A DNA stretch of 64,000 bases from Octopus vulgaris (lineage: Eukaryota). The stretch spans positions 27,528,001 to 27,592,000 of the forward strand of contig OX597838.1 in the NCBI GenBank assembly GCA_951406725.2. Reading direction: 5' to 3'. The position numbers and the translations under genes are program-made. Below, piece after piece: positions 6,426 through 42,395 of the stretch (positions are counted from its first letter, which is position 1; every line of letters starts with the position of its first letter). A model generated the notes under the pieces. It ran no database searches, was not told where the DNA came from, and saw only the letters and a program-made list of their open reading frames with translations.

Positions 6426-6595
6426 GTGTACATTATTTACATTTGACAGATATTTGTCCTCATCTTGTTTGTTGTTAACACAACGTTTCGGCTGATATAC
6501 TCACCAGCCTTCATCAGGTGTCTTGGGGAAATTTCGATCCTGGGTTCTCATTCCTAAGGTATTTTTCGTCGTCGTCGTCGTTGTTGTCGTCGTCG

Positions 6596-6633
<38 letters not shown>

Positions 6634-6707
6634 TAGTTCACTGTGTGGAATCAAACTCGGAATCTTGGGTTAGTAGTCCACACACTTAACCACTACGCTA
6701 TATGCTC
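6426..6707 (-). mobile_element. tRNA-headed SINE-like element with a hammerhead-containing 3' part
   Basis: The - strand begins GAGCATATAGCGTAGTGGTTAAG...GAGTTTGATTCC (A and B boxes), followed by (AAT)n/(GAC)n and then a body carrying a hammerhead core. Confidence 0.65.
6477..6522 (-). ncRNA. Minimal type-I hammerhead ribozyme motif (Penelope-type)
   Basis: GACAC-CUGAUGA-A-GGCUG(GUGAGUAUAU)CAGCC-GAAAC-GUU-GUGUU: stem I 5 bp, stem II 5 bp, loopless palindromic stem III (AACGUU). Confidence 0.75.
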
Positions 6708-6758
6708 AAGATTCTGAGTTCAATTCCAGGCAGTGACCTGAATAATAATAATAATAAC

Positions 6759-6801
<43 letters not shown>

Positions 6802-7618
6802 TCTACTAGTTGCAGGCCTTGTACCTTTCTACTATAGGCACAAGGCTTGCAACTTTGGGGGCACGGGTCTAGTTGATTTTATTGCCCCAGATAGGATTAA
6901 AGGCAAAAGTGATAATATTTCTAACACTGGCACAAGGGCAATGAGAAATTTGGCTGTGGCAGGGTTAGGGGTTACTTGATTAAATCAGCCCCAGTAGTTA
7001 CTGGAGTGTTTCAGTTTATTGATTAGGGAGGAGTTGGCTGCAGTGGCAGTTGCATCGTCATTGACATCAGCTTCCATCCATATCCATATCCCCCCCCCTG
7101 CAGGCATAAGGTCAGACATCCAAACAAGCTGTCACCCAACCACCACCACCACCACTACTACTTTCAGATTCGGTTTCATTTTTAACCCTTTTTTTTTTAA
7201 AAAATGTTTCCATTTGAAGCCCTTCTTCCACCCCTTACCTATTTGGCCTTGGTTGTCTGCTGTCTCTTCTAACCTCATCCAAAGCTCATCCAGTGCTTCA
7301 ACAACACTTTGCGGTTACATCACCCACCTAGGCTGTGCCATCTTCATTTGTAATAGGCGGCGTACACATCCATCTGCAGCCACTCACTGCTCTATCTGAT
7401 TGTTTGCACTCTCCCATCTCTAAACACGGATATCTTGCACGTCTCTCCCAGCCTTCACCTTATAACCACCACCACCACTGCCACCAGCATCAGAAAGAAG
7501 CTATATCATCATGTCTGATCCATTTGATTTGGTTTTCTATGCACACATATACATGTGCATTGTGCATGCATATATACTGAAAGAAAGAAGAACTAACTCT
7601 CTCCCTCCTATCTTCCTA

Positions 7619-7670
<52 letters not shown>

Positions 7671-7863
7671 TAAATTAGAGATAAAACCACTATTAGGCAA
7701 ATCAAACAATGAAAAGCTAAAGCCAATACATAAGATTAATTAATTTATATTATTTTAAATATATATCAAAATTATTAAAATAACACTACGATCATGGCTG
7801 TCCAATTGTCGAGTTACAGTCATTATATATATGTATGTGTATATGTGTATATATATGTATATA

Positions 7864-7951
<88 letters not shown>

Positions 7952-8287
7952 TGTGTGTGTATATATATATATATGTATATATATATATTTAAATAACTGT
8001 CTTTCTGTCTCTACCCATGCATGCAAGTGCACATGCACTAATACATATATAATACAATTGATATATCGAGCCACTAGTGGGGGGGTTTATAGTCCCTCAA
8101 CCTACTAGACATGCCAGACAAATCTCTCTTAAATTACACCCTACTGTGTTAGAAAAGAAAGGGTCACTTTGTGCCATGTCATCCTCATAGTCCTGTACTG
8201 AGGGAAAAAGTTGGGATGGCCATGGTTGTAATGCCATCCATTGATCACTGAGCTGCTTGATCGTATTTCACCCTGGGCTTAACAAAA

Positions 8288-8333
<46 letters not shown>

Positions 8334-8344
8334 ACTATGAATGT

Positions 8345-8630
8345 TTGTATTGTATGTATGTGACTGTCTGTCTGTCTATCTATCTATCTGTCCAACTATC
8401 TATCTATCTGTCTGTCTATCTATCTGTCTGTCTATCTGTCTGTCTGTCTATCTATCTGTCTATCTATCTGTCTATCTGTCTATCTATCTGTCTGTCTATC
8501 TGTCTGTCTATCTATCTATCTGTCTATGTATCTGTACAACTATCTATCTATCTATCTATCCATCCACCCATCCATCCAAAATCCATCCAGCCATCCACCC
8601 ATCCATCCATCTATCTATCTATCTACCTGC
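8345..8630. repeat. (TCTA/TCTG/TCCA)n tetranucleotide microsatellite
   Basis: Directly visible. Confidence 0.95.
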
Positions 8631-9690
8631 CTACATATGTATATATGCAGAGACATGTATACACACATAATTGCACACACATATATTGTTACATGTGTGT
8701 GTGTGTGTAGCATATTTGCACATGAACACATGCATAGATTGCACATATACATACACACACACATCTTCAGTATATTAAATGCAGGATTGCTTGTCCCCTT
8801 ATGAATTTTTTTTTCTCTTTGTTAACAACCAATACCTCTCAGTAGGTACATGTAAGCAAAACATGATTTTATTTATTCTACTCTGCACCCTTCCAACACA
8901 CACACACACACTTCTGCATATTAATAACTTCTACTTGTTTATCTTATCTCCATATAAACCCCAATCTGTTTACCAGGGGGACAGTTCTAACATATATATA
9001 TATACATATATACATACATATATATATATATGAGTTCTACGTCTAATTGTGGTGTCCTGTACTCACGTATATATATTTATATATGCTTGTATATATACAT
9101 GTAGATGTAGGTACGTACATATATGTATGTATGTATGCATATATAAATGGGTCTATGTTGTTCTTGTTGTTGCACCAGGACTTTGTATGAAATTGTGGAA
9201 TGAATGGATTACCGTTAATTCATTAATCCTTACCCAGATTAAGATTCAGAGTTCTCTCTCGCTGCTCTTTTTTTGGTTTTTTGTTGTTGTTTATTTTTTT
9301 TTGTTAGGTAATAGAAAAATGTCATTTTCTTGGTATTTCACATACTAAGTTTATATGATACTGATTATGATGATGATGATCTTCATCATTGTCATTGTTA
9401 TCTCAGAAGAGGTCCTTTAGCATTGAATAGAATGCTTCATGTTAATTCTTCTAATACCTAGCAGTCTGAGTTCAAATTCTTCAAAGAGCCACTTTACCTC
9501 TCGGGGTCAATGAAAAACAGAACTAATCCAAGGCAATGGATTGGTGGCCCTACAAGAATGTCAGATTGGATGCGTTACTGTGTTTATTCGAGCCCTTTGC
9601 ATTCTGAGTTCAAACCTCTTCATGGCTTACTTGGGTGGTAGACTTAACACATTGCCTGTTTGGCAACCCGACCTTAGTAACTTAAGTTTC

Positions 9691-9890
9691 TTTAGCAGAG
9701 TCCACTCTGTTACAAGCAAACACCACCACTTGGTCCTTAAGGACATTTAGCAGAATCTACACTGTTGCAAGCAAATACCACTACCTAGTCTGTGGTTACC
9801 TCTAACAGAGTCCACTCTGTTGCAAGCAAACACCACCACCACCACCTGGTCTGTGGGTGCCTTTAACAGAGTCCACTTTGCTTGAAGATA
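9691..9890. repeat. About 55-bp minisatellite, 3.5 copies
   Basis: TTTAGCAGAGTCCACTCTGTTGCAAGCAAACACCACC units start at 9691, 9746, 9801 and 9862. Confidence 0.9.
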
Positions 9891-10638
9891 CCTTCCTTCT
9901 GCTAGGCCCTGAGAATCCCTGACTCCTCTCCTGATTACATTGATTTTTTTTTTTAAAATGTCCCTTCTTGAAGAAACTCCCAGTTCTTTATGATTTGAAG
10001 AATGCATCAAATGTTTGCATTTTTACATTGGAAAATATTTAGTCCATTTTGGAAAACAGCTATACAAATATATTCAGGGTAAAGAAATGCTTTGTGAGAA
10101 CACTCAGTGCATTTATTTGTGTAGTGTTTAAGTTTTCTTAAATGTTCCCTGGGTTGTCTTTTGCCATAGCCTCTGATTAACCAAAACCTTGCGAGTGAAA
10201 ATGAGTAGGCAGAAACTGTTTAGAAGCCCCTTGAGGGGATTGATTTGCGCTGTAATTCAATGAATTGGCCCTTTTGCATGTTGTATATGCTGATTCTTCC
10301 TGAAAATTGCACTAGCTGCATATGCGTCTGTGGTATATTCAGTTACTTGCATGTTAATTCAATGAGTCAACCATTCTATTGATCAAACAGTTGGAACATA
10401 CATTGTCAAAACCTACGTGGGGGGGGGGGTGCTGGTCCTTTGTTATTATTTATAGTTACAAAGGCAGCAATCTGGTAAAACTATTAACATGCTGGGCAAA
10501 ACACTTAGTGGCATTCTGAGATCAAATCCCATGGATTCAAAATAAATACCAGTCAAATACTGAGGTCAACTACCCCTCTGCTCAAAAACTGCTGGCCTTG
10601 TGCCAAAATTTGAAATCCATCATTACGATACTTACATA

Positions 10639-11017
10639 GGCGCAGGAGTGGCTGTGTGGTAAGTAGCTTGTTTACCAACCACATGGTTCCGGGTTCAGTC
10701 CCACTGCGTGGCACCTTGGGCAAGTGTCTTCTACTATAGCCTTGGGCCGACCAAAGCCTTGTGAGTGGATTTGGTAGACGGAAACTGAAAGAAGCCCGTC
10801 ATATATATGTATGTGTGTGTTTGTCCCCCTAGCATTGCTTGACAACCGATGCTGGTGTGTTTATGTCCATGTTACTTAGCGGTTCGGCAAAAGATACCGA
10901 TAGAATAAGTACTGGGCTTACAAAAGAATAAGTCCCGGGGTCGAGTTGCTCGATTAAAGGCGGTGCTCCAGCATGGCCGCAGTCAAATGACTGAAACAAG
11001 TAAAAGAGTAAAAGAGA
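10639..11017 (+). mobile_element. Full-length SINE family A (tRNA head, CORE-like segment, internal microsatellite; Octopus OR-type by recall)
   Basis: GGCGCAGGAGTGGCTGTGTGG (A box), GGTTCAGTCCC (B box), CACCTTGGGCAAGTG (MIR-CORE-like), tail CAGTCAAATGACTGAAACAAGTAAAAGAG. Confidence 0.9.
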
Positions 11018-11635
11018 ATAATATTCCAGCTCTTTACACTCTGAATTCAAATCCTGCTGAGATCAACTTTTCCTTCTACGCTGCCCCACTCGAGATCAAT
11101 AAAATAATTTATCAGTTAAATACTCGCCTCTGCCCTTCAATATTGCTAGCCTTGTCCCTAAATTAGAAACCGTTATATTTACCTAAAATGGTTTTATTTT
11201 CAGTGTCTGCTCGTTTCAGTAATCATATTTCAGTGTGTTGCTCTCAGTTTTAGTTTATCAAGATTTCTGCTATAACACTCTACACACGTATATAAGAAAC
11301 CAAAAAAAAAAAAAAGTTATTTTCTTAAGATTTGTTAGATATTTGTTGTTATTCTAAGGCAGTCAGCGCTGGCAGAATGGGTAGCAAATCAGCCGAAATG
11401 CTTTGTGATATCTCCTCTGGCTTTTTATGTTCTGAATTCAAGCACTGCTGAGGTCAGCTTCACCTTTTATCCTTTTGGGGTTGACAAAAATAAGTACCAG
11501 TTGAACACTGGGTCAGTGTAATTGATTAGCTCCTCCTGCCAAAAATTCAGGGCTTGTACCCGAGGAATACTCAGTGTTAAAATGTTATTACTACAGTTTT
11601 TTTTTTCTTGTTAATATAGCAATAATAATAATAAT

Positions 11636-11841
11636 CCTTTCTAATATAGGCACAAGGCCTGGATTTTTGTGGGGAGGGGACAGTCAATTACATCAACCCC
11701 AGTGTTCAAATGGTTCTTAGTTTATTGCCCCTGAAAGGATGAAAGACGACCTCGGTGGAATTTGAACTCAAAACAACAACGGACAAAATGCCATTAAGCA
11801 TTTTTGCCCAGTGTGCTAATAATTCTGCCAGTTTGCTTCCC

Positions 11842-11884
<43 letters not shown>

Positions 11885-12032
11885 CATCATTCATCCTACT
11901 AAAGGCACAAGATCCCAAAAGGATGAAAGGCAAAGTCGACCTGGGCAGAATTGGAGCTCAGAACGTAAAAACAGACAAAATGCTGCTAAGCGTTTTGCCC
12001 GGCACGCTCACGATTCTGCCAGCTTGCTGCCT
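11636..12032 (-). mobile_element. Two SINE family B copies around a (TAA)n tract
   Basis: Reverse complement of the family B motifs. Confidence 0.8.
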
Positions 12033-12439
12033 TAATGATGATAATGATTATTTTAATTATAGATATCTTAAATATTTCTCTCGATGAATGATGGCCTTTT
12101 TTTCCATATGGTATAATTTGTTGGCTTTGCTGTCCCATTTTGCTGCTGGGTTTGTTCAAGGCCAGCGCCAGTTTGTGTGCAGAACATTCAGATCACAGAA
12201 GTATTAGCTGTGTCAGAGAGAGAGTGAGAGCGCGGGGAAGTAGGCTCGAGGCTTCCTGTTGTTTGTTCATCATCGTTGTCAAATGTGCCATTAATTAGAA
12301 TGGCCACTGCTACGCTGCTGCTGCTGCTTTTGTTTCAGACTTTAAAGCTTTGAAATCTAATCTTTTTTTCTTTTTTCCCCATTTTTTCTCAACTTTTTGG
12401 TGAATTTTACTGCTGCAGTGATGATTGATTCACTGTCAC

Positions 12440-12476
<37 letters not shown>

Positions 12477-13097
12477 TGATCTTGTAAAAAAATGTGTCAG
12501 AGATTTGGGAATTATAAAAGTGGTGATCTGTATTAATAACTGCTTTTCTGAAATTTTTCTCTGATACTAAATAGTCCCCTGCTATCGTCTCTTAGAATGT
12601 ATGGTCATGTATGAAGCAAGTTTTTTGTTTTTTCCAGAAGATTGCTCTAGTGTTGTGGTCTTATAAAATTCTGTAGTCCAACACAACAAAAATCCGTATT
12701 CAGTGTATGTCTGCAGCTGCAAGTTTTTTAATGGTATTGATGATGTTTGTTTTTTTATATTATTTTCTTCGAAATGAGTGGATCTTTTAAACCATTTTAT
12801 CTTCCTGTTAAGATATTAAATCTCTTGTTTTCAGTTACGCTTCTCAGACACTGTATATGGCACTTGCAGGTCCACTGCAAGACACCTTGGCCAAATGTCT
12901 TCTACTATAGCACTCTACCGGCCGATGCCTTGTGAGTGAATTTGGTTGATGGAAACTGTGTAGAAGCCTGTTTTACATATTGGATCAGGTCAGAGAAATC
13001 CTGCTATTGCTACCAGGTAACACAGTACTACCTGTTTCATGATTGGGTGGTCAGCAACTAAACCAGCTCCTTAAGGAGAGCATTGTGGACACTAGAG

Positions 13098-13412
13098 CAG
13101 AGGTTCTCAAATTTTTTGAGGCCACAGACCCCCTCATGGCCACATAATACCCTCACCCCTATTTTTATGTATTAATAAATATTTTATATTTTACTAATTT
13201 ATATATACTATAAATCATTTGATATTTAATATAATATTATATAATTTGTATACAATTCTATATTATAATAAATTCATAATGCCCCCAAACCGTTGCCTTC
13301 TGCCCAACACCTCATTTTTTTTCTCTACCCCCCACTGTCCCCTTAGGCATCAGTGCCAACATGGACTGTCTCAACGCCCACCGGTGGGTGGGGGGCACTT
13401 TGAGAGTCTGTG
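13098..13412. mobile_element. hAT (Charlie-type) MITE
   Basis: TIRs CAGAGGTTCTCAAA / TTTGAGAGTCTGTG (11/14 match); flanks CACTAGAG and CTCTACAG form a decayed 8-bp TSD fitting NTCTAGAN. Confidence 0.75.
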
Positions 13413-13618
13413 CTCTACAGGATCAAAAACAAGATCTGTCAAAGGACGGATAAGCTTATAGAGAGTCAATGGTCTCATAAAAACTCCTGCACTTGGGCTG
13501 GCAAACCATGCAGTTGGTCTAGGATCATAGCCGGGAAATCTCCAATGAGAGACCTACAGTACTTTCAAGTTGAAGTCAACAGTCACATGTGATGTTGTGT
13601 AGAGCAAGCTAAAGTCTT

Positions 13619-13667
<49 letters not shown>

Positions 13668-13670
<3 letters not shown>

Positions 13671-13790
13671 GGAGTAAACACATAAATGTGAAACAAGGTG
13701 GAAAAAAGAGTACTCAAATACCAGTGGTAGAGTAATATGCTTTATTTAAAGCAGCAGAAAATTCAGAATTTTCTGCTGCTTTAAATAAAG
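13668..13790 (-). mobile_element. Fragment of the short element family also at 30905-31050, ending in a perfect palindrome
   Basis: GAAACAAGGTG..AAAAA.AGTACTCAAATACCAG.GGTAGAGTAATATGCTTTATT is shared with the copy at about 30928; embedded in (AT)n. Confidence 0.75.
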
Positions 13791-14920: not shown

Positions 14921-15123
14921 TTACTCTTACTCTTTACTCTTTTACTTCTTTCAGTCATTTGACTGCGGCCATGCTGGAGCACTGCCTTTAATCGAGCAAC
15001 TTGATCCCGGGACTTATTCTTTTGTAAGCCCAGTACTTATTCTATCAGTCTCTTTTGCCAAACTGCTAAGTAACGGGGACATAAATACACCAGCATCGGT
15101 TGTCAAGCAATGCTAGGGGGACA

Positions 15124-15179
<56 letters not shown>

Positions 15180-16783: not shown

Positions 16784-16823
<40 letters not shown>

Positions 16824-16826
<3 letters not shown>

Positions 16827-17580: not shown

Positions 17581-17612
<32 letters not shown>

Positions 17613-17708
17613 TAAAAACTGTAAGATAACCAAAGAAAGAAAGACCTCAAGGAATTATTATGTAAATAGGTGGCCAGATAACCAGAGAAATTATTATGTA
17701 AATAGGTG

Positions 17709-17778
17709 GCCAGATAACCGAAGAGATGGTGTTGTAGATTTCTACTTCGGCATCCGAAACTCAGAGTTTTATCTTGGC
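17709..17778 (+). ncRNA. Variant type-I hammerhead motif inside a roughly 200-bp element (17610-17810) in (AT)n
   Basis: GCCA-GAUAA-CCGAAGA-GAUG...CAUC-C-GAAAC-UCAGA-GUU-UUAUC-U-UGGC; stem I GAUAA/UUAUC is extended by GCCA/UGGC; the core has U4>C. Confidence 0.65.
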
Positions 17779-17807
17779 TCTTGAATAATTGTCACATATT
17801 ATTTTAC

Positions 17808-17853
<46 letters not shown>

Positions 17854-19455: not shown

Positions 19456-20435
19456 TACTTTGATACTTTGATACTTTGATAGGTTTCGGCCATTATTGGC
19501 CCAGGCCATGTCTAACTTAATAGCACCACCTGGTGAAGTCTTTCAAGTCAGAATTTGGGCACTATGGCCCACTCAAGTAGAGAGTTATTGTTTACAGAGA
19601 CATATCCGGGTGTAGGGGGTTTATCCGGGATTTCTTGAAGGAATCTGTCCAAAGACTTCTTGAACCCTATAGGGTCAGTTTCTGTTTTAATGTGTTTTGG
19701 TGTAATGTTAAAGAGAGCGGGGCCAATTGAGGTGAAATAATTGTGCCGTATTGTTGTTATGAGATGAGAGTGCGATTTTTGTTTTGGGCGGATGGCACGG
19801 GGCCCAAGCCTTGGATGTACCTTAAAGGTGATGCCAACATCATTTGGGCAATGCTGATGGAATATTTTCCACATCATGCAGATGATGTAGCGCTCACGAC
19901 GACGTTGGAGAGAATAGAGTTTTAGCTTTTCTAGTCGACCCCAATAGTCGAGGCCTGTCATGCCATCTATCTTTTTTGTGATTGCCCTTTGAGGTGCTTC
20001 GACTTTTATGATACCTTGTATTGTGTGGGGAGACCACAGTGGACAACAGTATTCAAGGTGGGGTCGGGCAAAAGTGGAGAAGAGAAGGATAATGGTGTGG
20101 ATATCTCTCGACTGGAAAGTTCTGAGAATCCAGGAACACATTCTGCGGGCCATGTCAACTTTGGTGTTTATATGAGTGGCCCAGCTTACGTTGTTGTCCA
20201 CAATTACTCCCAAGTCTCTGATGTTGTTGGACGCCGTGAGAGTTTCACCTGAAGGAAGGGAGTATGGGAGTTTCAGGGCATCCTCTTTTCCAAAGTGGAT
20301 TAGCTCAAATTTATCCTCGTTCAACAGCATATTGTTTTTTTCTGCCCATTGGATAACAGCCAGTAGATCTGACTGAAGGCATGTCCGGTCACTCGCCTCA
20401 TTTATGACCTTCTGTAGCTTGGAGTCATCTGCATA
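19456..20435 (-). mobile_element. 5'-truncated CR1/L2-group LINE with (TATCAAAG)n tail
   Basis: RT C-terminal motifs, a short 3' UTR and three copies of an 8-mer tail at 19456-19480; compound (AT)/(GATA) repeats on both sides. Confidence 0.92.
19548..20435 (-). CDS. LINE ORF2 reverse transcriptase C-terminal fragment (295 uninterrupted codons, no true start)
   Basis: Reading upstream of the tracked ATG gives [42 protein letters not shown]...RDLGVIVD...[13 protein letters not shown]...[11 protein letters not shown]. Confidence 0.9.
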
Positions 20436-22164: not shown

Positions 22165-22203
<39 letters not shown>

Positions 22204-22204
<1 letters not shown>

Positions 22205-22631
22205 GCAATAATAATTCTCTAAATGAGATATAGACAGTAACTGCTCCATAACATAAGGGACTAAAGCCATCTGAATATGGACAGGGCAGGGTGGTGGGGG
22301 TGTTACTGTTGCATTTAGCCCCAGGCGAACATCAACGTCGCCAGATAGGCTTGACACCATCACGGCGTCCTCTATCCTGCAAAGGGAGATAATTCCCCGA
22401 TGAAGCGGAAACCACACACGGACCTAGGTTTCAAGGTGTTTGCCTATTATCAACGTATGGTAGGCACCCGCTTCCTCGACGAACCACTCACTCTGCACGA
22501 TATTTATATAGATTTTCAAGCAAAATACATTTGCTGATTTTGAAAATCTGTTCGACAGCAATAATAATTCTCTAAATGAGATATAGACAGTAACTGCTCC
22601 ATAACATAAGGGACTAAAGCCATCTGAATAT
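22204..22631 (-). mobile_element. Retrozyme-like element: 353-bp unit with identical 75-bp terminal direct repeats
   Basis: 22204-22278 is identical to 22557-22631; the interior is GC/CpG-richer, has several hairpins and a hammerhead-like fold; flanked by (AT)n. Confidence 0.65.
22415..22459 (-). ncRNA. Type-I hammerhead-like motif with substituted core
   Basis: CAUACG-UUGAUAA-U-AGG(CAAACA)CCU-U-GAAAC-CUAG-GUC-CGUGUG: all three stems and the GUC site are present; the core differs from CUGAUGA at 2 positions. Confidence 0.6.
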
Positions 22632-22640
22632 ACATAGCAG

Positions 22641-22671
<31 letters not shown>

Positions 22672-22953
22672 GATTTCTCTGAAGAGTGTTTATAATTATG
22701 AATAAATCACAATTACAATGGAGTGGGTTGCAAAAACCCTTACATATATATATATAAATGGATGAATGAATTATCCTTTGTTTACCGTTAACTTGGAAAA
22801 TTCAATAAACTGTTACCAGGGTAGCAAAATTCACGCTAGTAACACAGATGAAGCAACCTATTCAAAGGTAGAAACTCCGGGTTAATGTGCAGTAATTTGC
22901 GTGGTATAAGTAAATAAATGGAGTTGAAAGCAGATGTTATTAAAATTCTTTTA

Positions 22954-23031
22954 CTTTCGACGTATGTTTCGAAGACAACATTGGTTTTATTCCAAAGGAA
23001 TAAACAGTGTAAAATGCAATCTTCTCATCAA
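22954..23031 (-). ncRNA. Truncated hammerhead motif with long stem II
   Basis: UUGAUGA-GAAGA...UCUUC-GAAAC-AUAC-GUC-GAAAG; the 5' strand of stem I is missing. Confidence 0.5.
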
Positions 23032-23039
23032 ATATAGTT

Positions 23040-23215
23040 CAAATTTATAGAAAAACAAACACAGCTGTAGGAACAACAAGCAAGTGTATTAGTTTGATGC
23101 TCAGGAAAAATGGAAAAGTTACTTATATTACGAGCCTACGCTCTTCGGCAGAAAAGAATGAGGATATAAATAGAGAGAAAATGAAAAAAACATGTTGAGT
23201 CCAGTGGTCTAACAA
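23040..23215 (-). mobile_element. Degenerate copy of the hammerhead-bearing family at 31060 and 39670
   Basis: GTATTAGT...GCTCAGGAA...CGAGCCTACGCTCTTC..CAGAAA is shared. Confidence 0.7.
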
Positions 23216-30290: not shown

Positions 30291-31012
30291 TCACCATCAA
30301 ACCATCATTAAATCTGTCAAGTATTTGGTGTTTTGTAAAAATCTTTCTTAAAAGCTTGTGATTCCATCAAGTACGTGACAAGTACAGCAATGTACAGTAG
30401 AGTACAGTGTTATTTAGCTGTTACAACAATAGGGTGAACAGCAGGGGAACCCAGCTATTGGGCTGTGGGCCAGCACCAGGCTATAGATCATTTGATACTG
30501 GGCTGCGCAGAAACAAATTTTTAAATTTTACCATACATATGGTCTTTACTTGCTTTGCTCATTAAACTGAGGCCAGGCTGGGGCAGTGCCTTGGAGAATT
30601 TTTAGTTGAATGAATTGACACCAATACCTTTTTTTTTTTTTTAAACCTAGTACTTCTTCTATGAGTCTCTTTTGTCGAGATGCTAAGATATGGGCATATA
30701 AACACACCAATGCCAGTTGTCAAGCAGTGGTGGGGGGATAAACACACACACAAACACCTATATATGTGATCTTGAAGGGTTTGGTTAAACAAATGAAAGC
30801 GCTAATTAAGAATTATCCAAAATTCTGACTGCCTCCTTCTTCTTAATATACAATATCTGTACTCTCTCACTCTCTCTCTCTAATATATATATATATATAC
30901 ATACACCAGAGTAAGCACATAAATATGAAACAAGGTGAGAAAAAATAGTACTCAAATACCAGAGGTAGAGTAATATGCTTTATTAATAAAGCTGCAAAGA
31001 CATCGCAAAACC

Positions 31013-31048
31013 TGTTACTCAGAGTTTCGTGTTCCTGTTCGTCAGACA
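31013..31048 (-). ncRNA. Hammerhead motif with decayed stem II, in element 30905-31050
   Basis: UGU-CUGACGA-ACAGGAACAC-GAAAC-UCUGA-GUA-ACA; the core is perfect. Confidence 0.6.
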
Positions 31049-31151
31049 CACATATATATAAAGGGAAAGTTTACGAAAATAAACAAAAGACGAAGGCAGG
31101 TGGTGTACAAACAAACAGATGTATTAGTATAGCGCTCAGGAATAGAAAAAG

Positions 31152-31189
31152 TCTTTTACGTTTCGAGCCTACGCTCTTCTACAGAAAGA
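31152..31189 (-). ncRNA. Minimal variant hammerhead motif, in element 31060-31235
   Basis: UCUUU-CUGUAGA-A-GAGC(GUAG)GCUC-GAAAC-GUA-AAAGA. Confidence 0.65.
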
Positions 31190-31374
31190 TACACAGAAAA
31201 AAACAAGGAGAGAAAAAATGTGTCGTAGCTAACGATATATATATGTGTGTGTGTGTATGTATGTATATATATATACATAAGGTTAATCCAAACGGGAAAA
31301 CAGAAAAAACAACAACACATGGAACAATTACAGTATTATTATTATTAGGCGCTCAGGAAAATGGAAGAAGGAGG

Positions 31375-31409
31375 GTATGACGTTTCGAGCGGAGCTCTTC
31401 ATCGGAAAC
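31375..31409 (-). ncRNA. Minimal variant hammerhead motif, in element 31278-31490
   Basis: GUUU-CCGAUGA-A-GAGC(UCC)GCUC-GAAAC-GUC-AUAC. Confidence 0.65.
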
Positions 31410-31494
31410 ATAAGAGAAGGAAGAAAGAAGAAAGAAAGATCCCGATGTGGGCGAAAGAGGGAAAAAAAACGCGACTGGTGTTTACGAAGTACAC

Positions 31495-33596: not shown

Positions 33597-33740
33597 AAAA
33601 CAATTGCAGCGTGGAAGGTGTTTATAAGCCATTTAAGAAACACACAAAACTGTTAGATTCACTTCAACATTTAAATTTAAATTAAATTAACAGTTTTGTG
33701 TGTTTCTTAAATGGCTTATAAACACCTTCCACGCTACAAT

Positions 33741-33746
<6 letters not shown>
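33597..33746. repeat. 59-bp inverted repeat with 32-nt spacer (1 mismatch)
   Basis: 33597-33655 versus 33688-33746. Confidence 0.95.
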
Positions 33747-33802
<56 letters not shown>

Positions 33803-36749
33803 GCAATGGGCTTCTTTCAGTTTCCATGTACCAAATCCACTCACAAAGCTTTGGTTGGCCCAAGGCTATAGTAGAAGACACCTGCCCAAGGTGCCACACA
33901 GTGAGACTGAACTTGGAACTATGTGGTTAGGAAGCAAGCTTCTTACCACACAGTTTTATATATATATATATATATATATAGTTTTCCATGTGTGTGCAGT
34001 CAGATGTATGACTGCTCCTGGTAAATATACAACAGGTGTTCTCAACCATTCTTTATCTGTGGACCCTTTTCATTACTATTTTATTCTGGTGGGCCCTTTT
34101 AGCCACTTTGTGTTTAAAAACTAGCTTTATAGCAACTGCTTTCAAAATTCCTATTTTGTTTTAAGACCATTTTTTAAGGTCAAATTTATGAGGTTGACTA
34201 TTACATGGGTATTACTTTTGAGGGGCTGAACCCTAACCCTAACTCAGCTTGCCAGCTTTGGTGAAAGCATCCAACCCATGCCAAAATGGACAATGGACAT
34301 TAAATGAAGATGATACACACATGTATGTATGTGTGTGTGTGTGTGTCTGTGTATGCATTCATCTTACTGTCTCCTTGCCTTGACATTGTATGATGGTTGT
34401 AAAGAAGTATCACCATTATATAAATGGTGACCTTCATTTACAATTTTGTGCGACATGTCTGGTCTTAAGGAAATGGGGCCTTGCTCTTGAAAACAGTTTA
34501 GCAATGGGAAGGGTATCCAGCTATAGAAAATCTGCTTCAACAAATTCCATCTGACCCTTGCTAGAATGGAGAAGTGAATGTTAAAACAATGATTATCTAT
34601 CTAACAATATGTGTGTACATGCAAACATGCACCCACTCACACACACACATGCACACATGTTTGCATTCAATACATGTACATGATTTATTCATCTGAAGTT
34701 GATGATTCATTCATTCGCACATTTGCTACTCTGAGCTTCAAACAAAATCCATATTAATTATCTTTCTCGCAGACAGCACCACCATTTCCTTCCATCCCCT
34801 GTTATCACCTCGTTGATACTGTGTACACTGGCACCATTACCAACCTAAATGCCATCACCACCACCACCACCGCCGCCGCCATCATCATTACAGACCTCTT
34901 CACACAGACCTCCCCTGCCATCACTGTTAACCACCACTCTTATCATTGTCACTGTGTTGCAGTCTAAGGAATCACAAATAGCTAAGTCAACCAGCATCAA
35001 AAGACTGGACACAGCTTTGTCGGTTTGTATGTAAGTGGGGAACTGGCTACGGGGTGAGCAGAGAGCAGGAGAAATCTTCAGAGGAAGAGCTCAAATTAAG
35101 CAAATGTTTCAGCCTGTTAGTTCCTGACACCCTCGGTGGGGATCAGACCCACCTAGGTCATGACTCCTAGGTGTCCTCCTGCTGTCTTTGAAATGCTGCC
35201 TTTAGTGGCAGGGTTGAACCCAGAACCTTCAGGTGATCTTATTTCCCCAAACTGTGGTGTGTGTCACTGTCATTTCATTATGAAGATTATCACAGAGCTT
35301 GCACTGTCGGTCTGTTTCAGATTGGGTTACCTTTTTACTATGTTTAGTCAGTAGTTGAGTTATGTAAGTCTTTCTACAACTCATACCCCCACACTGTAAA
35401 CCAATACATTGGTTAGGTACTGCCATCGGTCAAGCACGAGTTCTCCAGCTACCTTACTACTCTTGTCCAGATCCTGATGCAGCCGCTGACTCTCCAGCCC
35501 TCAGTGAAACCATCCAACCCATGCCAGCATGGAAAACAAACATTAAACGATGATGATGATTGTCCATCTACTGTAGTCTTTGCCTGCCTCTTGATCTTTG
35601 TAATGTCCATCATTGTAAAAACCAAGTGGTTCCTACTTTGGATTGTGGCACATTTCCACATTCTGGCCCACTTCTACTTTTTGGCTTATTTCCAAATTCT
35701 GGCCTTTTCCCTACATTCTTGCCTACTTCCATTTTCTGCTCTTGTTCCACATTCTGGTCCATTAATCCTGATCCCATGTTATACATCCTCTGCCTGTTGG
35801 TGTTACTGTTGTTCAGAATCCCTAATAAACCTGAATTAAAAGATGTTCCAGCCAGAGCCACCGCTGTAACTTTCTTGGATATGGTGTATTACCTAATGTA
35901 CCTTTCTTGTAATATGCGATTGGAAGGATGTTTTAGCTGCTATTTCTAACACGTCGGTCACCCACATAGACGCTCGTTTGTTTCAGTATCTACCACCCAC
36001 CCACCTACACACCAGTTGGGTGTCTCGTTAAACTGCAGTAAATCCTAACACAACACCACCTCCACCACCATCATAAATACTGCAGCCACGGTCACTTCAC
36101 CTCCACCAGCCCTGCCCCCACCATTGATCTGATCCCTCCCTTCCTCCCATTGCATCACCTCCTCCTCTTCCTCCTCCTCTGCTGCTACTGTTCTTAAGAC
36201 ACGACCACTTGTTCTGCTTCCCTGTCTTTAGTGCTTCAATTATCTTGTAACTTCTTTACAACATCTTCTATGACTCATTATCATTGTGGACATCAGCAAC
36301 AAGGCTGTGTTGTCTTTTACGGTCATCATCTTCGTCGTCGTCATCATTAATCTTTTTTTGTTTTGATTTTGTTTTTTCCATGACAAAAGAAAATAAAAGA
36401 AATTATTTTCTATAATGGTTTCTATTGTAATTCTAATAATTATGCAACATTTTAATGTTGATGATGTAACATGTGGCGTTTATCATTGAAAAAGTCATCA
36501 AGTGGAATTCGCTCCCTGTTGCTGCTGTTGTGTTGCAGATATGGGGGGAATTCCGTCATCCACTCAATTTTTGCTTTTTTCCAATGGGGAGATAATCGAC
36601 CATTTTAATTTCAGTGCAACTTGTATCCACTGATGGAACACTCTGCAGAGGCCTAGAACTGCAAGAAGCAGAGGCTTGAGTACTATAGGTGGTGGTGGTG
36701 GTAATGGCACAGGGTTTTAGCTGTCACGGGTTACAGGTTTTATTAAATA

Positions 36750-36912
36750 GGCACAGAAGTGACTGTGTGGTAAGTAGCTTGTTTACCAACCACATGGTTC
36801 CAGGTTCAGTCCCACTGCGTGGCACCTTGGGCAAGTGTCTTCTTCTATAGCCTCGAGCCGACCAAAGCCATATGAATGGATTTGGTAGATGGAAACTCAA
36901 AGAAACCTGACG

Positions 36913-36951
<39 letters not shown>

Positions 36952-37115
36952 ATTTGTGTGTCTATGTTTGTCCCCGCAACATCGTTTGACATCTGCTGTT
37001 GGTGTGTTTACATTCCTGTAACTTAGCGGTTCGGCAAAAGAGACCAATAGAAAATGTACTAGGTGCTTCAGCATGGCCACAGTCAAATGACTTAAACAAG
37101 TAAAAAAATAAAAGA
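36750..37115 (+). mobile_element. SINE family A with internal deletion
   Basis: Matches the head, body and tail of family A. Confidence 0.85.
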
Positions 37116-39669
37116 ATAAATAGTTGATTATGCCACCTCCTTTCTTGTTTTTTTTTTCTCTTTTCATCCCAGGGTGATGAGTGCCGTGCTATTTCACCAC
37201 CAAGCCAGCCAGGTGCCCTCCCTGTACCCAGGAGCCAGCTTGCTAAGATTCTGCTGTTCCCTATATATGTTGTACAACAGACATACAAATCAGCCAGGCT
37301 CTTGTTTCCAATCCCTTTGTTTGATGGTGTCAGTCCACAAATATCTTTTGGCCCCTTCTTACTCTCTTTCCCTCCACACTCTCTGTCCAAATGATTTTGG
37401 GCAAGTTACTCATGATACAGTGTATGTCCAGGTAAAGGGTAAAGACCCCCCTTCGGTCATAAATGACCATGATTGTGGGCCCGACACCCTAACAACTGAG
37501 CCATGGGCCTGATTATTTTCTGGGCTTGATTCTCGACAGCAGGTGTGTTTGGGCTTTTGGGTTTTCCAGTACGATAGCATTGTTATTCTGTTATTCCAGC
37601 CTATTGCAGAATAATAGCTGCAACGACACTGAATTAAACAACTTAACAATGCACAGGCAAATACCACACCCACCTTTGCAACACAGCACTTAGTGCACTA
37701 AGTGACACAGTGATATACAATGTAATGCAACACCACACTCATTCCAGCACACCAATCACAGATGAGCTTGTGCAATCACGTGACCAGGGACTAATAAACA
37801 GCGGTGTAGCTGAGAATTAACGAGTCTTGGAATGCAAAGTGTCATGGGAGTCACAGAGCAGGAGCAAAGCACATAGTCATATTACCACTAGCAGCTGCAA
37901 TGCAGTATCTCAAATACATGAAATAAATTATTTACTCCCAAACCTATTATGATTCCCCCACCCTCCCGAGAAACCCCAAATGACTTCTAAGGGGTCACGG
38001 CCCCCAGGATAAGAACCGATGTGCTATTTCATCATACTATGTCAAGTTGGATTCTGTAGGGCAACCATAGAAATCCTATATCTCTATGAAGCACAATGTT
38101 GGAACTCTGAGTAAGACAGGCACTAAATCCCCTGATGGAGTATTCCACCCAGCTACTGAGACTAAATTACCAAAGGTAATTTGCAGTGAGCTGGCAGAAT
38201 CGTTAGCATGTCAAGCAAAATGCTTAGCAGTGTTTCGTCTGCCGTTACGTTTTGAGTTCAAATTCCGCTGAGGTCGACTTTGCTTTTCATCCTTTCTGGG
38301 TCGATAGATTAAGTACAAGTTACGCTGTGGGAGAGATGTAATTGACTTAATCCCTTTGTCTGTCCTTGTTTGTGCCCTCTATGTTTAGCCCCCTGTGGTC
38401 AATAAACAAATGAATTATTAATGCAAACATAGAGGTAGCAAGCTGGCAGAATCTTTACCTCATCAGACAAAATACTTTACAGTATTTCTTTTGATTCATT
38501 ATGTTCTGAGTTCAAATTCTGTTGAGGTTGACATAGCCTTCCATCCTTGGTTAAAGGAAGTACCAGTCAAGTAGTGTAATAAGCTTTACCCCTCCCCTCA
38601 AAATTGCTGCCCTGGTGCCAATTATAGAAAGAATTATTTGTGCAGTCATGGGTAGTTTAGAAGTTTGTCTTGTGGCCATGTAGTTTCATGTTCAGTCCCA
38701 CTGCATGGTACCTTGGGCAAGTATTTCCTACTATATTCCCAAACCAACCAATGCCAAGAGTAAAAGAACGGGAAGAAGAAACATGGTATAAAAAAAATTA
38801 AAATGTTAAGAAGAAAATTGCAGCAGAGCTGTGTGTGTGTGTGTGCATGCTTTTATGTTTGCAACCCTCACCACTTGACAACTAATGTTGGTTGGTTTAC
38901 ATCCCTTTGTTATATCAGTTCAGCAAAAACCTAAGTACCACACCTAAATTAATTACTGTGACTGATTTGTTTGACTAAATCCTTCAAGGCAGTGCTACAG
39001 TATGGCCACTATCAAATGACTGAAACAAGCAAAAGAGTAAAAGAACGGGAAGAACAAACATGGTATAAAAAAAATAATAAAAATGTTAAGAAGAAAATTG
39101 CAGCAGAGCTGTGTGATAGGATGTCAGGCATTGCATGCTGACCATCGTATAACTTGTTAAACATGTGCATTGCATTTTTGTTCTTCTCTTCCGTTTTACG
39201 AATGCAGTGTGCACCGTGCATTGCATGTCCGTTCTCCTTTTTCCGGTTCCTACTCAAAACTGTTTACAGATCACAACCATCTCATAAACCTGCGTTCATG
39301 AGGAACACTTTGCGCTCCGATGGTTGTGAGATAAGAAAGAACTGTGGAATGTTGGGACATGGTGCCATCCATTGGCCAGGAACTTCTGCCAGTTGCAAAT
39401 GGAAATCAGAGACTGGGGAAGGTTCTTTGTCAGTACACTTGACCAAGATAGAGATGGTGGTGGTGGTGGTGGTGGTTTTGGTAGTGGGTCCATTTAAGAC
39501 CTTCCCCTCCTAACTGGATAGGAGTAGGTGTAATAACAAAGTCTTGTGATGAAAAGGAATTCAGAGTAATTGGTTTGAATAAGAAGAAACAAGTGTTTCT
39601 CTGTTTTGTTTTTTTGTTTTTTGTTTTATTTTTCTTGACAGTCAATCATTATATTAATTAATATATATA

Positions 39670-39835
39670 TAAACGGGAAAGTTTACGAAAAAAACAAAAG
39701 ACGAGGGCTGGTGGAGTACAAACAAATAAATGTATTAGTATAGCGCTCAGGAATAGAAATAGAAAAAGTCTTTTACGTTTCGAGCCTATGCTCTTCGACA
39801 GAAAGATATACTGAAAAAAAACAAGGAGAGAAACC
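39670..39835 (-). mobile_element. Hammerhead-bearing short element (motif at 39769-39806)
   Basis: Close copy of 31060-31235; UCUUU-CUGUCGA-A-GAGC(AUAG)GCUC-GAAAC-GUA-AAAGA; inserted in (AT)n. Confidence 0.8.
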
Positions 39836-41080
39836 TATATATATGTATGTATGTATGTATACACATTAAGAAATGTATAGTAAATGCAAAGACAATTTGG
39901 AAAGCAGATACAAAAAGTCCCCACCTCCTCATCAATTATCAGCCAGTGGGTCAAATGCAATTTTGTGCCTTTAACGATAGTGGGGTGTGTGTGGTTGTGT
40001 ATGCTTGTATTTGTGGGTATGTGTGAGAGATCAATCTTCGTATGTATATTAATGTGTGTATATGTGTGTGTGTGTGCCTGCACATGTGTATATTAGTGTG
40101 TACACATGCCTATAGCAATGTGCACGTGTGTGTGTGCATGTGCATATGAATGTGTGTTTATTCGTGTGTATACCATGTACATGTATTCATGTGTGTGTGT
40201 TTAGTCATTGTTCATCCTACAAGTGTCACTCTTTTAACATGTTACTCATTTTTATTCTCGTTATTTCATTTCATTTGTAAATTTAATTAATATTTTTCTC
40301 TTTTTTCCACTCCTTTTTGATTTCTTTTGGTCCATTTTTTCTTTCTTTTTTTTTTATTTGTTTACTTCGTTAATGTCCAATGTGCTACCAATTCATTCAG
40401 TTTTCTCTCTCTCTCTCTCTCTCTTCATTCCTCTGTCTACCTGTCTGTCTCTCCCACACTCTTTCACTCTCTCTTCTTCCCTTTTGCTCTTTCTCCGGCT
40501 CTCACAATAACTTTCTCTCTCTCTCTCTCTCTCTCGTGTGGATTAAATCTCTTTAAAACAAATGAAACATCAAGGCTATTAACATTGAGTAGGTTTACAG
40601 TAAGGGAGAGAAGTCAGGAAGAATTACAACAGCAGCTGTACTAGTAGTAGCAGTAGCAGCAGCAGTATTTCATACACCCACCCTTCCAGCTCACCACTGT
40701 GGTGTTATGGAGTAAAACAACTTAAATATAATTATATATTTTGTTCAATGTATTTCCTTACACATATATATATCGTTGCTATTATGTTAAATGGTCGTAT
40801 GTCCAAATTTGGCCAAATGCATTTGATTTCAATATTTATTTTTGCTTGCAATAGCCAGTTCTTTTGGTCAAACTGTTGTATCTCCAGCTGCTTCAGATGC
40901 CAAGATATCAAAAATTGTCAAAGTGTAGTACAACAGTTTTGCTATGGAATGGTGAAACTATTTTTTTCTTTTTCTGAAAAAGCAATGTTTTGGACTTAAA
41001 CACATTTTTGCATAAAAGCAATGATATATATATGTGTGTGTGTGTATGTATAAATGTATGTATCTATGTATATAAATATA

Positions 41081-41199
41081 TACGGCCATATCACATTGAA
41101 AACACCGGTTCTCATCCAATCACCGAAGTTAAGCAATGTTGAGCCTAGTTAGTACTTAGATGGGTGACTGGTTGGGAAACCTAGGTGTAAACATCTTTT
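41081..41199 (+). pseudogene. 5S rRNA pseudogene
   Basis: TACGGCCATATCACATTGAAAACACCGGTTCTCATCCAATCACCGAAGTTAAGCAATG...GTTAGTACTTAGATGGGTGAC..TGGGAA matches metazoan 5S with CpG-type transitions; solitary; ends in a T run. Confidence 0.9.
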
Positions 41200-41212
41200 A
41201 TTTCTATATGTG

Positions 41213-41548
41213 AATGCACATGGCTCAGTGGTTAGAGTGTCAGGTTCACAAGCATGAGGTAGTGAGTTTGATTCTTAGAGCAGACTGTGTTTTGTGTTCT
41301 TGAGCAAAGCACTTTATTTACACATTGCTCCAGTTCTCTCAGCTGTGGAAATGAGTTGCAACATCACCGGTGCCAAGTTCTATTGCCTTTGCCATTGCTA
41401 ACATAAGTGGTGTCGAGAGGGAGAGGCTGGTATGCATGGGAGACTGTTGGTCTTCCACAAACAACCTGGCTTGGACTTGTGTCTCGGAAGGGAACTTTCT
41501 AGGTGCAGTCTCATGGTCATTCATAACCGAAGGGGGGCTTTGTCCCTT
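41213..41548 (+). mobile_element. SINE family C
   Basis: Colinear with 25770-26108. Confidence 0.85.
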
Positions 41549-42194
41549 ACATACATACACACATACAAATGACATCACTTTAATTATCATTGTTCTAGCA
41601 TCCCCTTATCCATAGATTGGATGGAATATGTTGAAGCAAATTTTCTATGGCTGGATGCCCTTCCCATTGCCAACTCTCACTTGTTTTCAAATAATGTACT
41701 TCCCCATTACCAGACTTGTTTTCACTGAATATTGGAAGCAAAGGACTCCACTTATATGACGGTGACACTTGCATGATGTGAAGGCAAGGAGTCATAACAC
41801 ACATGCGCTGACACCTACACACACACATACATACATATATAATTTATTTCATGTTTTTTAATAACTACTTGTATCTTATCTTATATGCATAGACTAATAT
41901 ACTATATGTATATATGTTAGTATGGTTGTCGTTTTGATAAATAAATAAGTCAACATTTTAATGTCCTAAAGTTGATGAACCGACTAATGTGCTTCACCAT
42001 TTTCTTATTTGCAATAAAAATTAATGGTAAAATATTTCTTTACCTTCACCCATTTAATACAATAAGTTAATTGTTTTGCAATTAAAAACACTTGTGTATT
42101 AATAATTGGGTATTATACCAACATTATATTGGATAAACATTATCCCTTAGTGGGTTGTACTCACAACCCCTAACTTTATGTATATTCAAAATGT

Positions 42195-42395
42195 GACCGC
42201 GTGTGTACCGTTGGCGATTTTTTTTCCTCTGTCTTCCCTTCTCTGGATCTTTCCTTCTCCTATGTTTCCGACGAAGAGCTCCGCTCGAAACATTAAAACC
42301 TCCTTCTTTCCTGAGCGTCCAATAATACTATATTTGTTCCACGTCCTCGCATTGTTGTGTTTTTTTTTTTGTGCTTTCTTGTTTGGATTAACTTT
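42195..42395 (+). mobile_element. Hammerhead-bearing short element (motif at 42264-42299), same family as 31278-31490
   Basis: GUUU-CCGACGA-A-GAGC(UCC)GCUC-GAAAC-AUU-AAAAC; the rest matches the reverse complement of 31278-31490. Confidence 0.78.

What the first reader, a model, noticed from the sequence alone, without database searches (positions are those of the whole stretch)
6477..42299. At least nine minimal or variant hammerhead ribozyme motifs in several short AT-tract-inserted element families
Seen: type-I hammerhead topology (stem I, CUGANGA-like core, stem II, GAAAC, NUH, stem I') at 6477, 17709, 22415, 22954, 31013, 31152, 31375, 39769 and 42264. Stem sequences differ while pairing is largely kept (GGCUG/CAGCC, GAGC/GCUC, GAUG/CAUC, GAAGA/UCUUC). 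Stem III is loopless or palindromic in most, and several carry an extra A after the core. Established: such tiny hammerheads mark Penelope-like elements and metazoan retrozymes and can cleave as dimers. Inference: this genome hosts a dense, multi-family population of non-autonomous ribozyme retroelements, about one per 7 kb here.
Basis: partly seen in the sequence, partly recalled or inferred. Interest (0 to 1): 0.85.

Follow-up and report, generated by a model that had tools for sequence, protein, structure and literature searches.

The report
Penelope hammerheads, one with altered core
These short motifs have the shape of the tiny hammerhead ribozymes already known from Penelope-like jumping genes and most are the cut-off tail ends of such elements, but the largest family, which likely is still jumping, has fixed a change at a normally invariant core letter, so it may cut poorly or work mainly as a folded RNA signal (cutting untested).

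Summary
Real, mostly a known kind. Six of the nine sites fit a minimal type-I hammerhead descriptor (shuffles: mean 0.2); three are decayed or truncated copies of families whose intact members fit. Four exact patterns give 45,299 genome matches. The window's density is ordinary for this genome (about 1 per 17 kb). The 'non-autonomous' reading mostly fails: families A, B, C and E are 3' ends of RT/GIY-YIG Penelope-like elements (PLEs), and A and B have young, intact, full-length copies. Only 22415 is a copy of a tandem retrozyme. Families D and G have no proven parent. Two twists were not found in my paper searches. (1) Family A (at least 18,815 motifs) has fixed U at core position 6, while positions 7 and 17 vary and the fold stays conserved. 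(2) Family C carries a tRNA-like A/B-box cassette between ORF and hammerhead, where many short copies begin. Insertion 5' ends are not enriched at the predicted cut (40 vs 31). Cleavage is untested. Lunse 2017 could not be read. The scan noted mass PLE hammerheads before, in other genomes.

The parts
6418..6708 (-). Family C element: 3' pLTR end of a Penelope/Poseidon-type PLE (tRNA-like head, AAT tract, hammerhead, tail)
   Evidence: 76% over 292 nt to the 3' end of an EN-bearing copy; EN to head to hammerhead order
6477..6522 (-). Minimal hammerhead, canonical core, 8-bp stem II, extra A after A9, 4-nt palindromic stem III; predicted cut after 6482
   Evidence: passes both descriptors; 3,975 pattern matches in the genome, reversed control 0
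6635..6705 (-). tRNA-like cassette (A box about 6700-6690, B box about 6658-6647), decayed in this copy
   Evidence: sequence; A box in 21 of 30 and B box in 21 of 30 EN-bearing loci; no Rfam tRNA match for one good copy
6707..6761 (+). Inverted piece of the same head, joined at the 5' end (PLE-type inversion)
   Evidence: 89% over 55 nt
17581..17815 (+). Family D element (17699-17815) with an inverted copy of its tail upstream (17581-17669); parent ORF not found
   Evidence: 1,109 pattern matches; no same-strand parent shown
17712..17774 (+). Hammerhead with C at position 4, long stem II, one unpaired C before G12, 9-nt palindromic stem III; predicted cut after 17768
   Evidence: passes the relaxed descriptor
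22202..22629 (-). About 1.2 units of a 359-bp tandem retrozyme-like repeat, 76% identical to the array in L061
22415..22459 (-). Type-I hammerhead with U3-A8 core, 6-bp stem I, palindromic stem III; predicted cut after 22421
   Evidence: passes both descriptors
22917..23031 (-). Family G copy, 5'-truncated at the core; hammerhead incomplete (22954-23031)
   Evidence: 1 of 6 G-type loci has a GIY-YIG-like frame about 620 nt upstream; its kinship to this copy was not checked
23046..23181 (-).
30890..31050 (-). Family E copy: 3' end of a Nematis-like PLE (clade name recalled); hammerhead 31012-31049 with broken stem II
   Evidence: 7,012 pattern matches; 4 of 12 loci (two inverted pairs) run 1.5 kb back to an EN frame
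31046..31240 (-). Family A copy: 3' end of a Neptune-type PLE; hammerhead 31152-31189 with U6 core; predicted cut after 31157
   Evidence: 93% over 197 nt to the end of a long EN-bearing copy
31277..31482 (-). Family B2 copy: 3' end of a 6.2-kb Neptune-type PLE; hammerhead 31375-31409 with C4 core and one mismatch in stem I
   Evidence: 86% over 210 nt to the end of full-length L281
39663..39833 (-). Family A copy; hammerhead 39769-39806 with U6 core; predicted cut after 39774
   Evidence: 89% over 172 nt; passes both descriptors
42176..42398 (+). Family B1 copy; hammerhead 42264-42299 with stem III broken by G16.2>A
   Evidence: 73% to the B2 full-length end, own parent ORF not fetched

Best explanation
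The motifs are minimal hammerhead folds in the terminal repeats (pLTRs) of several Penelope-like retrotransposon families, plus one retrozyme copy, and the short elements are 5'-truncated copies likely left when the element's RT-endonuclease nicked AT-rich DNA and copied only the end of an RNA that had likely not been cut at the motif. Shown: motif shape, copy numbers, physical linkage to RT/GIY-YIG frames for A, B2, C and E, fixed 3' ends about 108 nt past the predicted cut in family A, (TA)n flanks, inverted 5' pieces, and conservation of the fold between subfamilies. Inferred from PLE literature: transcription from the pLTR, internal start of reverse transcription, and slow, dimer- or protein-dependent cleavage that is not needed for insertion. 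In family A the fold is kept under selection with U at position 6. It is predicted to be a very slow or protein-assisted ribozyme, or a folded signal read by the element's protein.
For: Family A: 20 of 30 loci found with its endonuclease piece carry the motif 569-1,032 nt downstream on the same strand, all 20 with U6. 11 of 20 loci picked for long open frames have two motifs 4.4-4.6 kb apart around one ORF (966 aa from Met to the end of the EN; RT above Pfam cut-off, GIY-YIG weak). The two repeats are 98.1-99.8% identical in 6 of 7 loci examined. Family B2: two full-length 6.2-kb elements with 99.85% repeats and a 1,008-aa open frame in one, 60% identical to A. Family C: EN end followed by head and hammerhead (15 of 30 loci with the motif within 500 nt); homologues carry RVT_1. 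Family E. The family A 3' end is fixed where the element itself has a TA-rich run. Across 18 hand-picked family representatives, 158 of 162 stem and C3-G8 pairs are standard, against a shuffled mean of 91.5 (max 107 in 5,000). Among 90 family A copies, subfamily-level changes hit 3 of 30 constrained positions against 37 of 90 3'-flank positions (P=0.0015); position 7 is U48/A21/C13/G8, position 17 is A54/U34/C2, and position 6 is U in 87. No 5'-end excess at the cut: 40 vs 31 at a control register (P=0.34). Literature: min-HHRs in pLTRs, low activity, U3-A8 variant (PMC4209133); hammerhead mutants do not affect PLE insertion in vitro, and cleavage needs the protein (PMC11167929).
Against: No cleavage or RNA-end data. 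Parents of D and B1 were not found; G rests on 1 of 6 loci. The pairing count is partly circular, because several representatives were found by a descriptor that demands pairing. The family A copies were collected by a fuzzy match to the motif (16 of 90 by an exact one) and are rich in young copies, which favours apparent conservation. Loop II is also nearly invariant and other flank blocks are invariant too, so the constraint could act on sequence (promoter or protein site) and not on the fold. RNAcofold gave the expected intermolecular stem III with both stems II intact for only 2 of 5 copies (D, F). Rfam hammerhead models do not score these motifs. Clustered 5' ends in family C, and by eye in A and B, are not what random truncation alone would give.
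Confidence: 0.85

Rival explanations
1. The short copies are true non-autonomous elements (retrozyme- or SINE-like) with their own transcripts. This is most plausible for family C, where a tRNA-like polymerase III promoter inside the pLTR would make a 250-350-nt hammerhead RNA that the PLE protein copies.
For: 22415 is a copy of a 359-bp tandem array with no ORF. In family C, alignments that overlap the head start within -9..+3 of its first base in 12 of 24 cases (loci picked by the hammerhead) and 7 of 11 (other loci, including the window's own copy). The stretch from head to tail has no run of four T in 12 of 14 copies. Polymerase III SINE-like hammerhead elements are known in schistosomes (PMC6765202 passages).
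Against: The same head lies 39 nt after the ORF end of EN-bearing copies, so it is part of the PLE. The head start is a near-palindrome and many starts are inversion joints, which could make the hot spot without a promoter. There is no Rfam tRNA match; relaxed ARAGORN calls at the head come with many noise calls. A, B2 and E are plainly ORF-linked.
Confidence: 0.2
2. In family A the U6 change killed the ribozyme, and the block is kept only as a DNA or RNA sequence signal (promoter, splice or protein site), so the hammerhead shape is a relic.
For: Changes at A6 give low activity (A6C below 0.1 per min; PMC3088659 section 8). Naiad PLEs spread without hammerheads (PMC8557442 passages). Loop II hardly varies in family A. 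No 5'-end excess at the cut.
Against: The only motif positions that change repeatedly between subfamilies are 7 and 17, the two that hammerheads leave free, and position 17 is never G in 90 copies. Stem I covaries with sister family B at its fourth pair.
Confidence: 0.3
3. The motifs are efficient in-vivo ribozymes that cut multimeric RNA into monomers or circles that serve as the insertion template.
For: This is the published model for retrozymes (PMC7229834 passages) and fits the tandem array behind 22415, whose intact units have a canonical core and 6-bp stem I.
Against: PLE-derived copies keep the whole motif and about 100 nt beyond the cut. 5' ends are not enriched at the cut in the youngest family A subfamily. 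A 4-nt palindromic stem III cannot close in a monomer.
Confidence: 0.12
4. Chance matches in AT-rich repeat DNA.
For: 3 of 9 copies fail the descriptor; Rfam does not score them; relaxed descriptors give some hits in shuffled DNA (2-8 per 720 kb).
Against: 6 hits against 0.2 expected; thousands of exact copies per family with reversed-pattern controls of 0; fixed position downstream of PLE ORFs.
Confidence: 0.01

Closest known systems
Minimal hammerheads (min-HHR) in pLTRs of metazoan Penelope-like elements (Cervera and De la Pena 2014, PMC4209133)
   Same: Type-I topology, extra base after A9, G10.1-C11.1, palindromic or absent loop III, short stem I, dispersed single copies from truncated PLEs, inverted pairs, U3-A8 variant.
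   Different: Family A has U at position 6. All 56 representatives in that paper's Fig. S3 text have A6, though their descriptor required it. Families B, D and part of E have C at position 4. Copy numbers are higher than the 2,000-9,000 per genome quoted there.
Neptune-type C-terminal EN+ PLEs (Craig et al. 2021, PMC8557442 passages)
   Same: Families A and B2: single ORF with RT, cysteine-rich linker and C-terminal GIY-YIG, partial tandems, inverted 5' pieces, (TA)n flanks.
   Different: No tree against named reference PLEs was built; clade names rest on the linker motif. B2 has an unusually long (about 2.9 kb) CA-rich stretch between ORF and hammerhead.
Anolis Poseidon element PAc (Frangieh et al. 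2024, PMC11167929)
   Same: Fixed internal 3' ends downstream of the motif, optional tail (two 3' ends in family E), AT-rich targets, no sign of ends at the cut.
   Different: PAc was assayed and its core mutants lose cleavage; nothing here was assayed. In family A the ORF starts about 740 nt after the motif, not inside it.
Non-LTR retrozymes of animals (PMC7229834 passages; bioRxiv 10.64898/2026.07.22.740005, first part)
   Same: The 22415 family: 359-bp tandem repeat without ORF, one type-I hammerhead per unit; the L061 array also has a PLE-type inverted 5' part and TA flanks.
   Different: The window copy is 76% identical, has 1.2 units with one motif, and has a U3-A8 core; circles and expression are untested.
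Schistosome polymerase III SINE-like hammerhead elements (PMC6765202 passages)
   Same: Family C places a tRNA-like promoter-type cassette upstream of a hammerhead.
   Different: Here the cassette sits in the terminal repeat of an ORF-bearing PLE and copies are dispersed, not tandem; polymerase III use is untested.

Membership tests
PLE minimal hammerhead | Type-I topology with stems I and II around the two core boxes | tested here: met
   6 of 9 window copies; family representatives 158 of 162 pairs
PLE minimal hammerhead | Palindromic or loopless stem III | tested here: met
   families A, B, C (4 nt), D, E (9 nt), F, G; broken in the 42264 copy
PLE minimal hammerhead | Canonical core with A at position 6 (families B-G) | tested here: met
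   C4 and U3-A8 variants are described in PMC3088659 and PMC4209133
PLE minimal hammerhead | Canonical core with A at position 6 (family A) | tested here: not met
   U in 87 of 90 copies and in 18,815 exact matches; filed as a variant, not a canonical member
PLE minimal hammerhead | Lies in the terminal repeat of an RT-EN element | tested here: met
   A, B2, C, E; inconclusive for D, G and B1
PLE minimal hammerhead | Self-cleavage at position 17 as dimer or with protein | not testable with these tools
   no assay; the only indirect test (insertion 5' ends) showed no excess
Rfam Hammerhead_1 (RF00163) | Score above the gathering threshold | tested here: not met
   best 12.3 bits vs 34 for an intact retrozyme unit; none for 6440-6560; none above threshold in L061 or L306
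C-terminal EN+ PLE (Neptune-type), families A and B2 | One ORF with RT, Cys linker and C-terminal GIY-YIG; partial tandem pLTRs | tested here: met
   A: RT above cut-off, GIY-YIG below; B2: both below cut-off; homologues with RVT_1 and GIY-YIG
C-terminal EN+ PLE (Neptune-type), families A and B2 | Placement in the Neptune clade by RT phylogeny | not tested
   no named reference PLE set was available
Non-LTR retrozyme (22415 family) | Tandem 150-450-bp repeat without ORF, one type-I hammerhead per unit | tested here: met
   L061: five units plus two inverted, 359-bp period; window copy has 1.2 units
Non-LTR retrozyme (22415 family) | Expressed as linear and circular monomer RNA | not testable with these tools
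   no read data examined for this family
Non-autonomous element (families A, B2, C, E) | No coding parent of the same sequence | tested here: not met
   ORF-linked copies
tRNA-derived SINE (family C short copies) | tRNA-related head with A and B boxes at the 5' end | tested here: inconclusive
   boxes present and 5' ends cluster there, but no Rfam tRNA match and the head is internal to the PLE
tRNA-derived SINE (family C short copies) | Transcribed by RNA polymerase III | not testable with these tools
   only T-run avoidance in 12 of 14 copies

The most novel reading that the evidence does not exclude
A still-active Penelope-like lineage has fixed a 'forbidden' U at hammerhead core position 6 in at least 18,815 genomic motifs and keeps the rest of the fold under selection across subfamilies: a natural hammerhead that cuts only with its element's protein or has become a non-catalytic RNA signal. 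With its A6 sister family (60% protein identity) in the same genome, it makes the open question of what PLE hammerheads do directly testable. A second family shows a tRNA-like promoter cassette inside a PLE terminal repeat, a possible route from PLE to hammerhead SINE.
Probability: 0.35. Interest if true: 0.62.

Novelty: new variant of a known kind. Interest (0 to 1): 0.4.

Why it matters
Why PLEs keep hammerheads is unresolved: activity in vitro is low, some clades lack them, and mutants still insert in vitro. A young, intact, high-copy PLE whose motif has lost a conserved core base while keeping the fold, next to a sister family with the normal base, is a ready-made paired test of catalysis against structure. 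The finding also warns that descriptor searches requiring A6 miss more than half of this stem-II family (18,815 of 33,203). The general phenomenon, many dispersed PLE hammerheads in an animal genome, is known and not surprising.

Tried and rejected
Rfam scans did not identify the motifs. ARAGORN found no tRNA in the window. No RNA holder was listed for the family A end; all holders were contigs, which cannot show RNA ends, and laying four of them said nothing usable about position 6. A 5'-end hot spot at the cut was tested in the youngest family A subfamily only and not found (40 vs 31; by eye, about 3 and 2 of these rows are shifted or mutated motifs, not truncations). The RT fragment inverted beside one family D copy was followed as D's parent and rejected: 0 of 8 related loci matched D. 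A GIY-YIG family search found other PLE families, but none of the 30 loci or 20 extended regions was the parent of a window family. The parent of A was found by reading upstream of long copies. Dimer folding by RNAcofold was not decisive. The alignment had two rows in the wrong orientation and was not used. 5'-end clustering in families A and B was only seen by eye or roughly mapped, and the kinship of the EN-linked G-type locus to the window copy was not checked; both stay open. Lunse et al. 2017 is not held, so an A6U variant among its many motifs cannot be excluded. Part 3 of the PMC4209133 supplement and the bioRxiv supplements were not seen.
Full report
Setting. The window is G000:C25:27528001-27592000 in a 2.8-Gb, microsatellite-rich animal genome. 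The host is probably an octopus.

Observation. All nine coordinates carry hammerhead-like letters. A strict type-I descriptor passed 4 of 9, with 0 hits in 30 shuffles. A relaxed one passed 6 of 9, against a mean of 0.2 in 50 shuffles. The 22954 copy is truncated at the core, 31013 has a broken stem II, and 42264 has a broken stem III. Their families have intact members. Exact family patterns give 33,203 (A+B), 3,975 (C), 1,109 (D) and 7,012 (E) matches, all with reversed controls of 0. In 72 blind 10-kb samples the relaxed descriptor found 47 motifs (10 in two tandem arrays; shuffles 2-8), about 1 per 17 kb net. That extrapolates roughly to 160,000 per genome, and the window's 6 is within expectation. 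Rfam did not score these motifs.

What the elements are. Family A (31152, 39769, decayed 23151): reading upstream of long copies showed an endonuclease end. Of 30 loci found with that piece, 20 carry the motif 569-1,032 nt downstream on the same strand. Of 20 loci chosen for long open frames, 11 have two motifs 4.4-4.6 kb apart around an ORF of 966 aa (Met to end of EN) with RT, a cysteine linker and GIY-YIG. The repeats are 98.1-99.8% identical in 6 of 7 examined, so the family is young and probably active. Family B2 (31375) is the end of a 6.2-kb sister element, 60% identical in protein, with 99.85% repeats. B1 (42264) is 73% similar to that end; its own parent was not fetched. Family C (6477) follows the EN of a PLE without the cysteine linker. 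Family E (31013) runs back to an EN frame in 4 of 12 loci (two inverted pairs), whose nearest homologue has RT motifs. Pfam itself gave no GIY-YIG match for the C and E pieces, and the clade names Poseidon-type and Nematis-like are my reading of motifs, partly recalled. Family G has 1 of 6 loci with an EN-like frame upstream. Family D has no proven parent. The 22415 motif lies in 1.2 units of a 359-bp repeat that elsewhere forms an ORF-less tandem array with one canonical hammerhead per unit, i.e. a retrozyme.

How it most likely works. Shown: family A copies end at a fixed point about 108 nt past the predicted cut, where the element itself has a TA-rich run, and abut (TA)n. 5' ends vary and are often joined to an inverted piece. 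Copies contain the uncut motif. In the youngest A subfamily, 5' ends are no commoner at the cut than at a control register five bases upstream (40 vs 31, P=0.34). Inferred, by analogy with the Anolis element (PMC11167929, parts 1-2 of 4 read): the protein nicks AT-rich DNA, starts reverse transcription inside the RNA downstream of the motif, and mostly stops early, so the hammerhead is over-represented in short copies. Cleavage, if any, would be slow and would need a partner motif or the protein. A 4-nt palindromic stem III cannot close in one molecule, but co-folding gave the expected dimer for only 2 of 5 copies.

The U6 core. 18,815 of the 33,203 A+B matches have U at position 6 with U at 4. 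In 90 family A copies (16 picked by exact pattern, the rest by a fuzzy match) position 6 is U in 87, while position 7 is U48/A21/C13/G8 and position 17 is A54/U34/C2. Subfamily-level changes touch 3 of 30 constrained positions against 37 of 90 3'-flank positions (P=0.0015). The free positions are those a hammerhead leaves free, which argues that selection on the fold outlasted the change. Against this: the sample is motif-selected, loop II is nearly invariant too, and other flank blocks are also invariant. A6 changes are known to lower activity (A6C; PMC3088659 passages and section 8). I found no report of a natural A6U family in searches. All 56 rows of Fig. S3 in PMC4209133 have A6 (supplement parts 1-2 of 3; main text parts 1-2 of 4), but that search required it. 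Lunse et al. 2017 could not be read (title and a review's summary only), so prior description is not excluded.

The family C cassette. A and B boxes lie 39 and 83 nt after the EN match in most copies (21 of 30 each by strict matching). Alignments overlapping the head start within -9..+3 of its first base in 12 of 24 and 7 of 11 cases, and 12 of 14 head-to-tail stretches lack a run of four T. This fits a polymerase III promoter making SINE-like short copies. But Rfam finds no tRNA, and the head start is a near-palindrome that could itself favour inversion joints. Searches found no paper on such a cassette in a PLE. Schistosome polymerase III hammerhead SINEs are the nearest case (PMC6765202 passages).

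Other papers seen: PMC8557442 (passages), PMC7229834 (passages), bioRxiv 10.64898/2026.07.22.740005 (part 1 of 5), PMC13282606 (passages: 31 recently active PLE families in Octopus vulgaris, no mention of ribozymes), PMC6962438 (passages: 235 hammerhead_1 matches in giant squid), PMC13725137 (passages, no A6U). Earlier scan notes describe mass PLE hammerheads in other genomes; none covers this genome or sequence.

Verdict. The kind is known. The fixed U6 core in a young autonomous family, and the tRNA-like cassette in family C, make it a new variant worth a modest score.

Noticed in passing
window 41078-41195 +: 5S rRNA-like copy scoring 83.5 bits in Rfam with several unpaired positions; gene, pseudogene or 5S-derived SINE head not decided.
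   Followed up: no
window 19548-20430 -: Fragment of a LINE-type RT frame (CR1-like by eye) interrupted by a long ATAT tract; a similar end lies at 63481-63855 +.
   Followed up: no
window 5731-6350, 32800, 38167, 45857, 51007-53330: Many copies of two short interspersed repeat families, probably octopus SINEs; unrelated to the hammerhead families.
   Followed up: no
L114, L120 (G000:C16:33681715-33691714; C2:17349730-17359729): Another young PLE family with intact 781-aa frames and a U3-A8 minimal hammerhead about 880 nt after the stop; a further young family with 776-aa frames.
   Followed up: partly
L105, L106 3' ends: A PLE family whose hammerhead-like end has C in place of A13 as well as U3-A8, in both copies seen: a second odd core.
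   Followed up: no
L306, L072, L304: A second tandem retrozyme-like family (about 362-bp period) with a U3-A8 core, and related single motifs.
   Followed up: partly
L281 oriented 5322-8233: Family B2 carries about 2.9 kb of CA-rich low-complexity sequence between ORF and hammerhead, copied at 99.85% identity, so this PLE spreads microsatellite-like DNA.
   Followed up: partly
families A and B, about 75-90 nt upstream of the core: Many short copies seem to begin in the same zone, possibly the pLTR transcription start; seen by eye and roughly mapped only.
   Followed up: partly
window 30890-31482 and 22200-23180: Different PLE families sit head to tail in the same TA tract (B, A, E; and A, G, retrozyme), as expected if each insertion leaves a target for the next.
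   Followed up: partly
L359-L370 (family E): Position 11.1 varies freely (A, G, U, C) between subfamilies above a 2-bp stem with a GNRA-type loop, and copies show two alternative 3' ends.
   Followed up: partly
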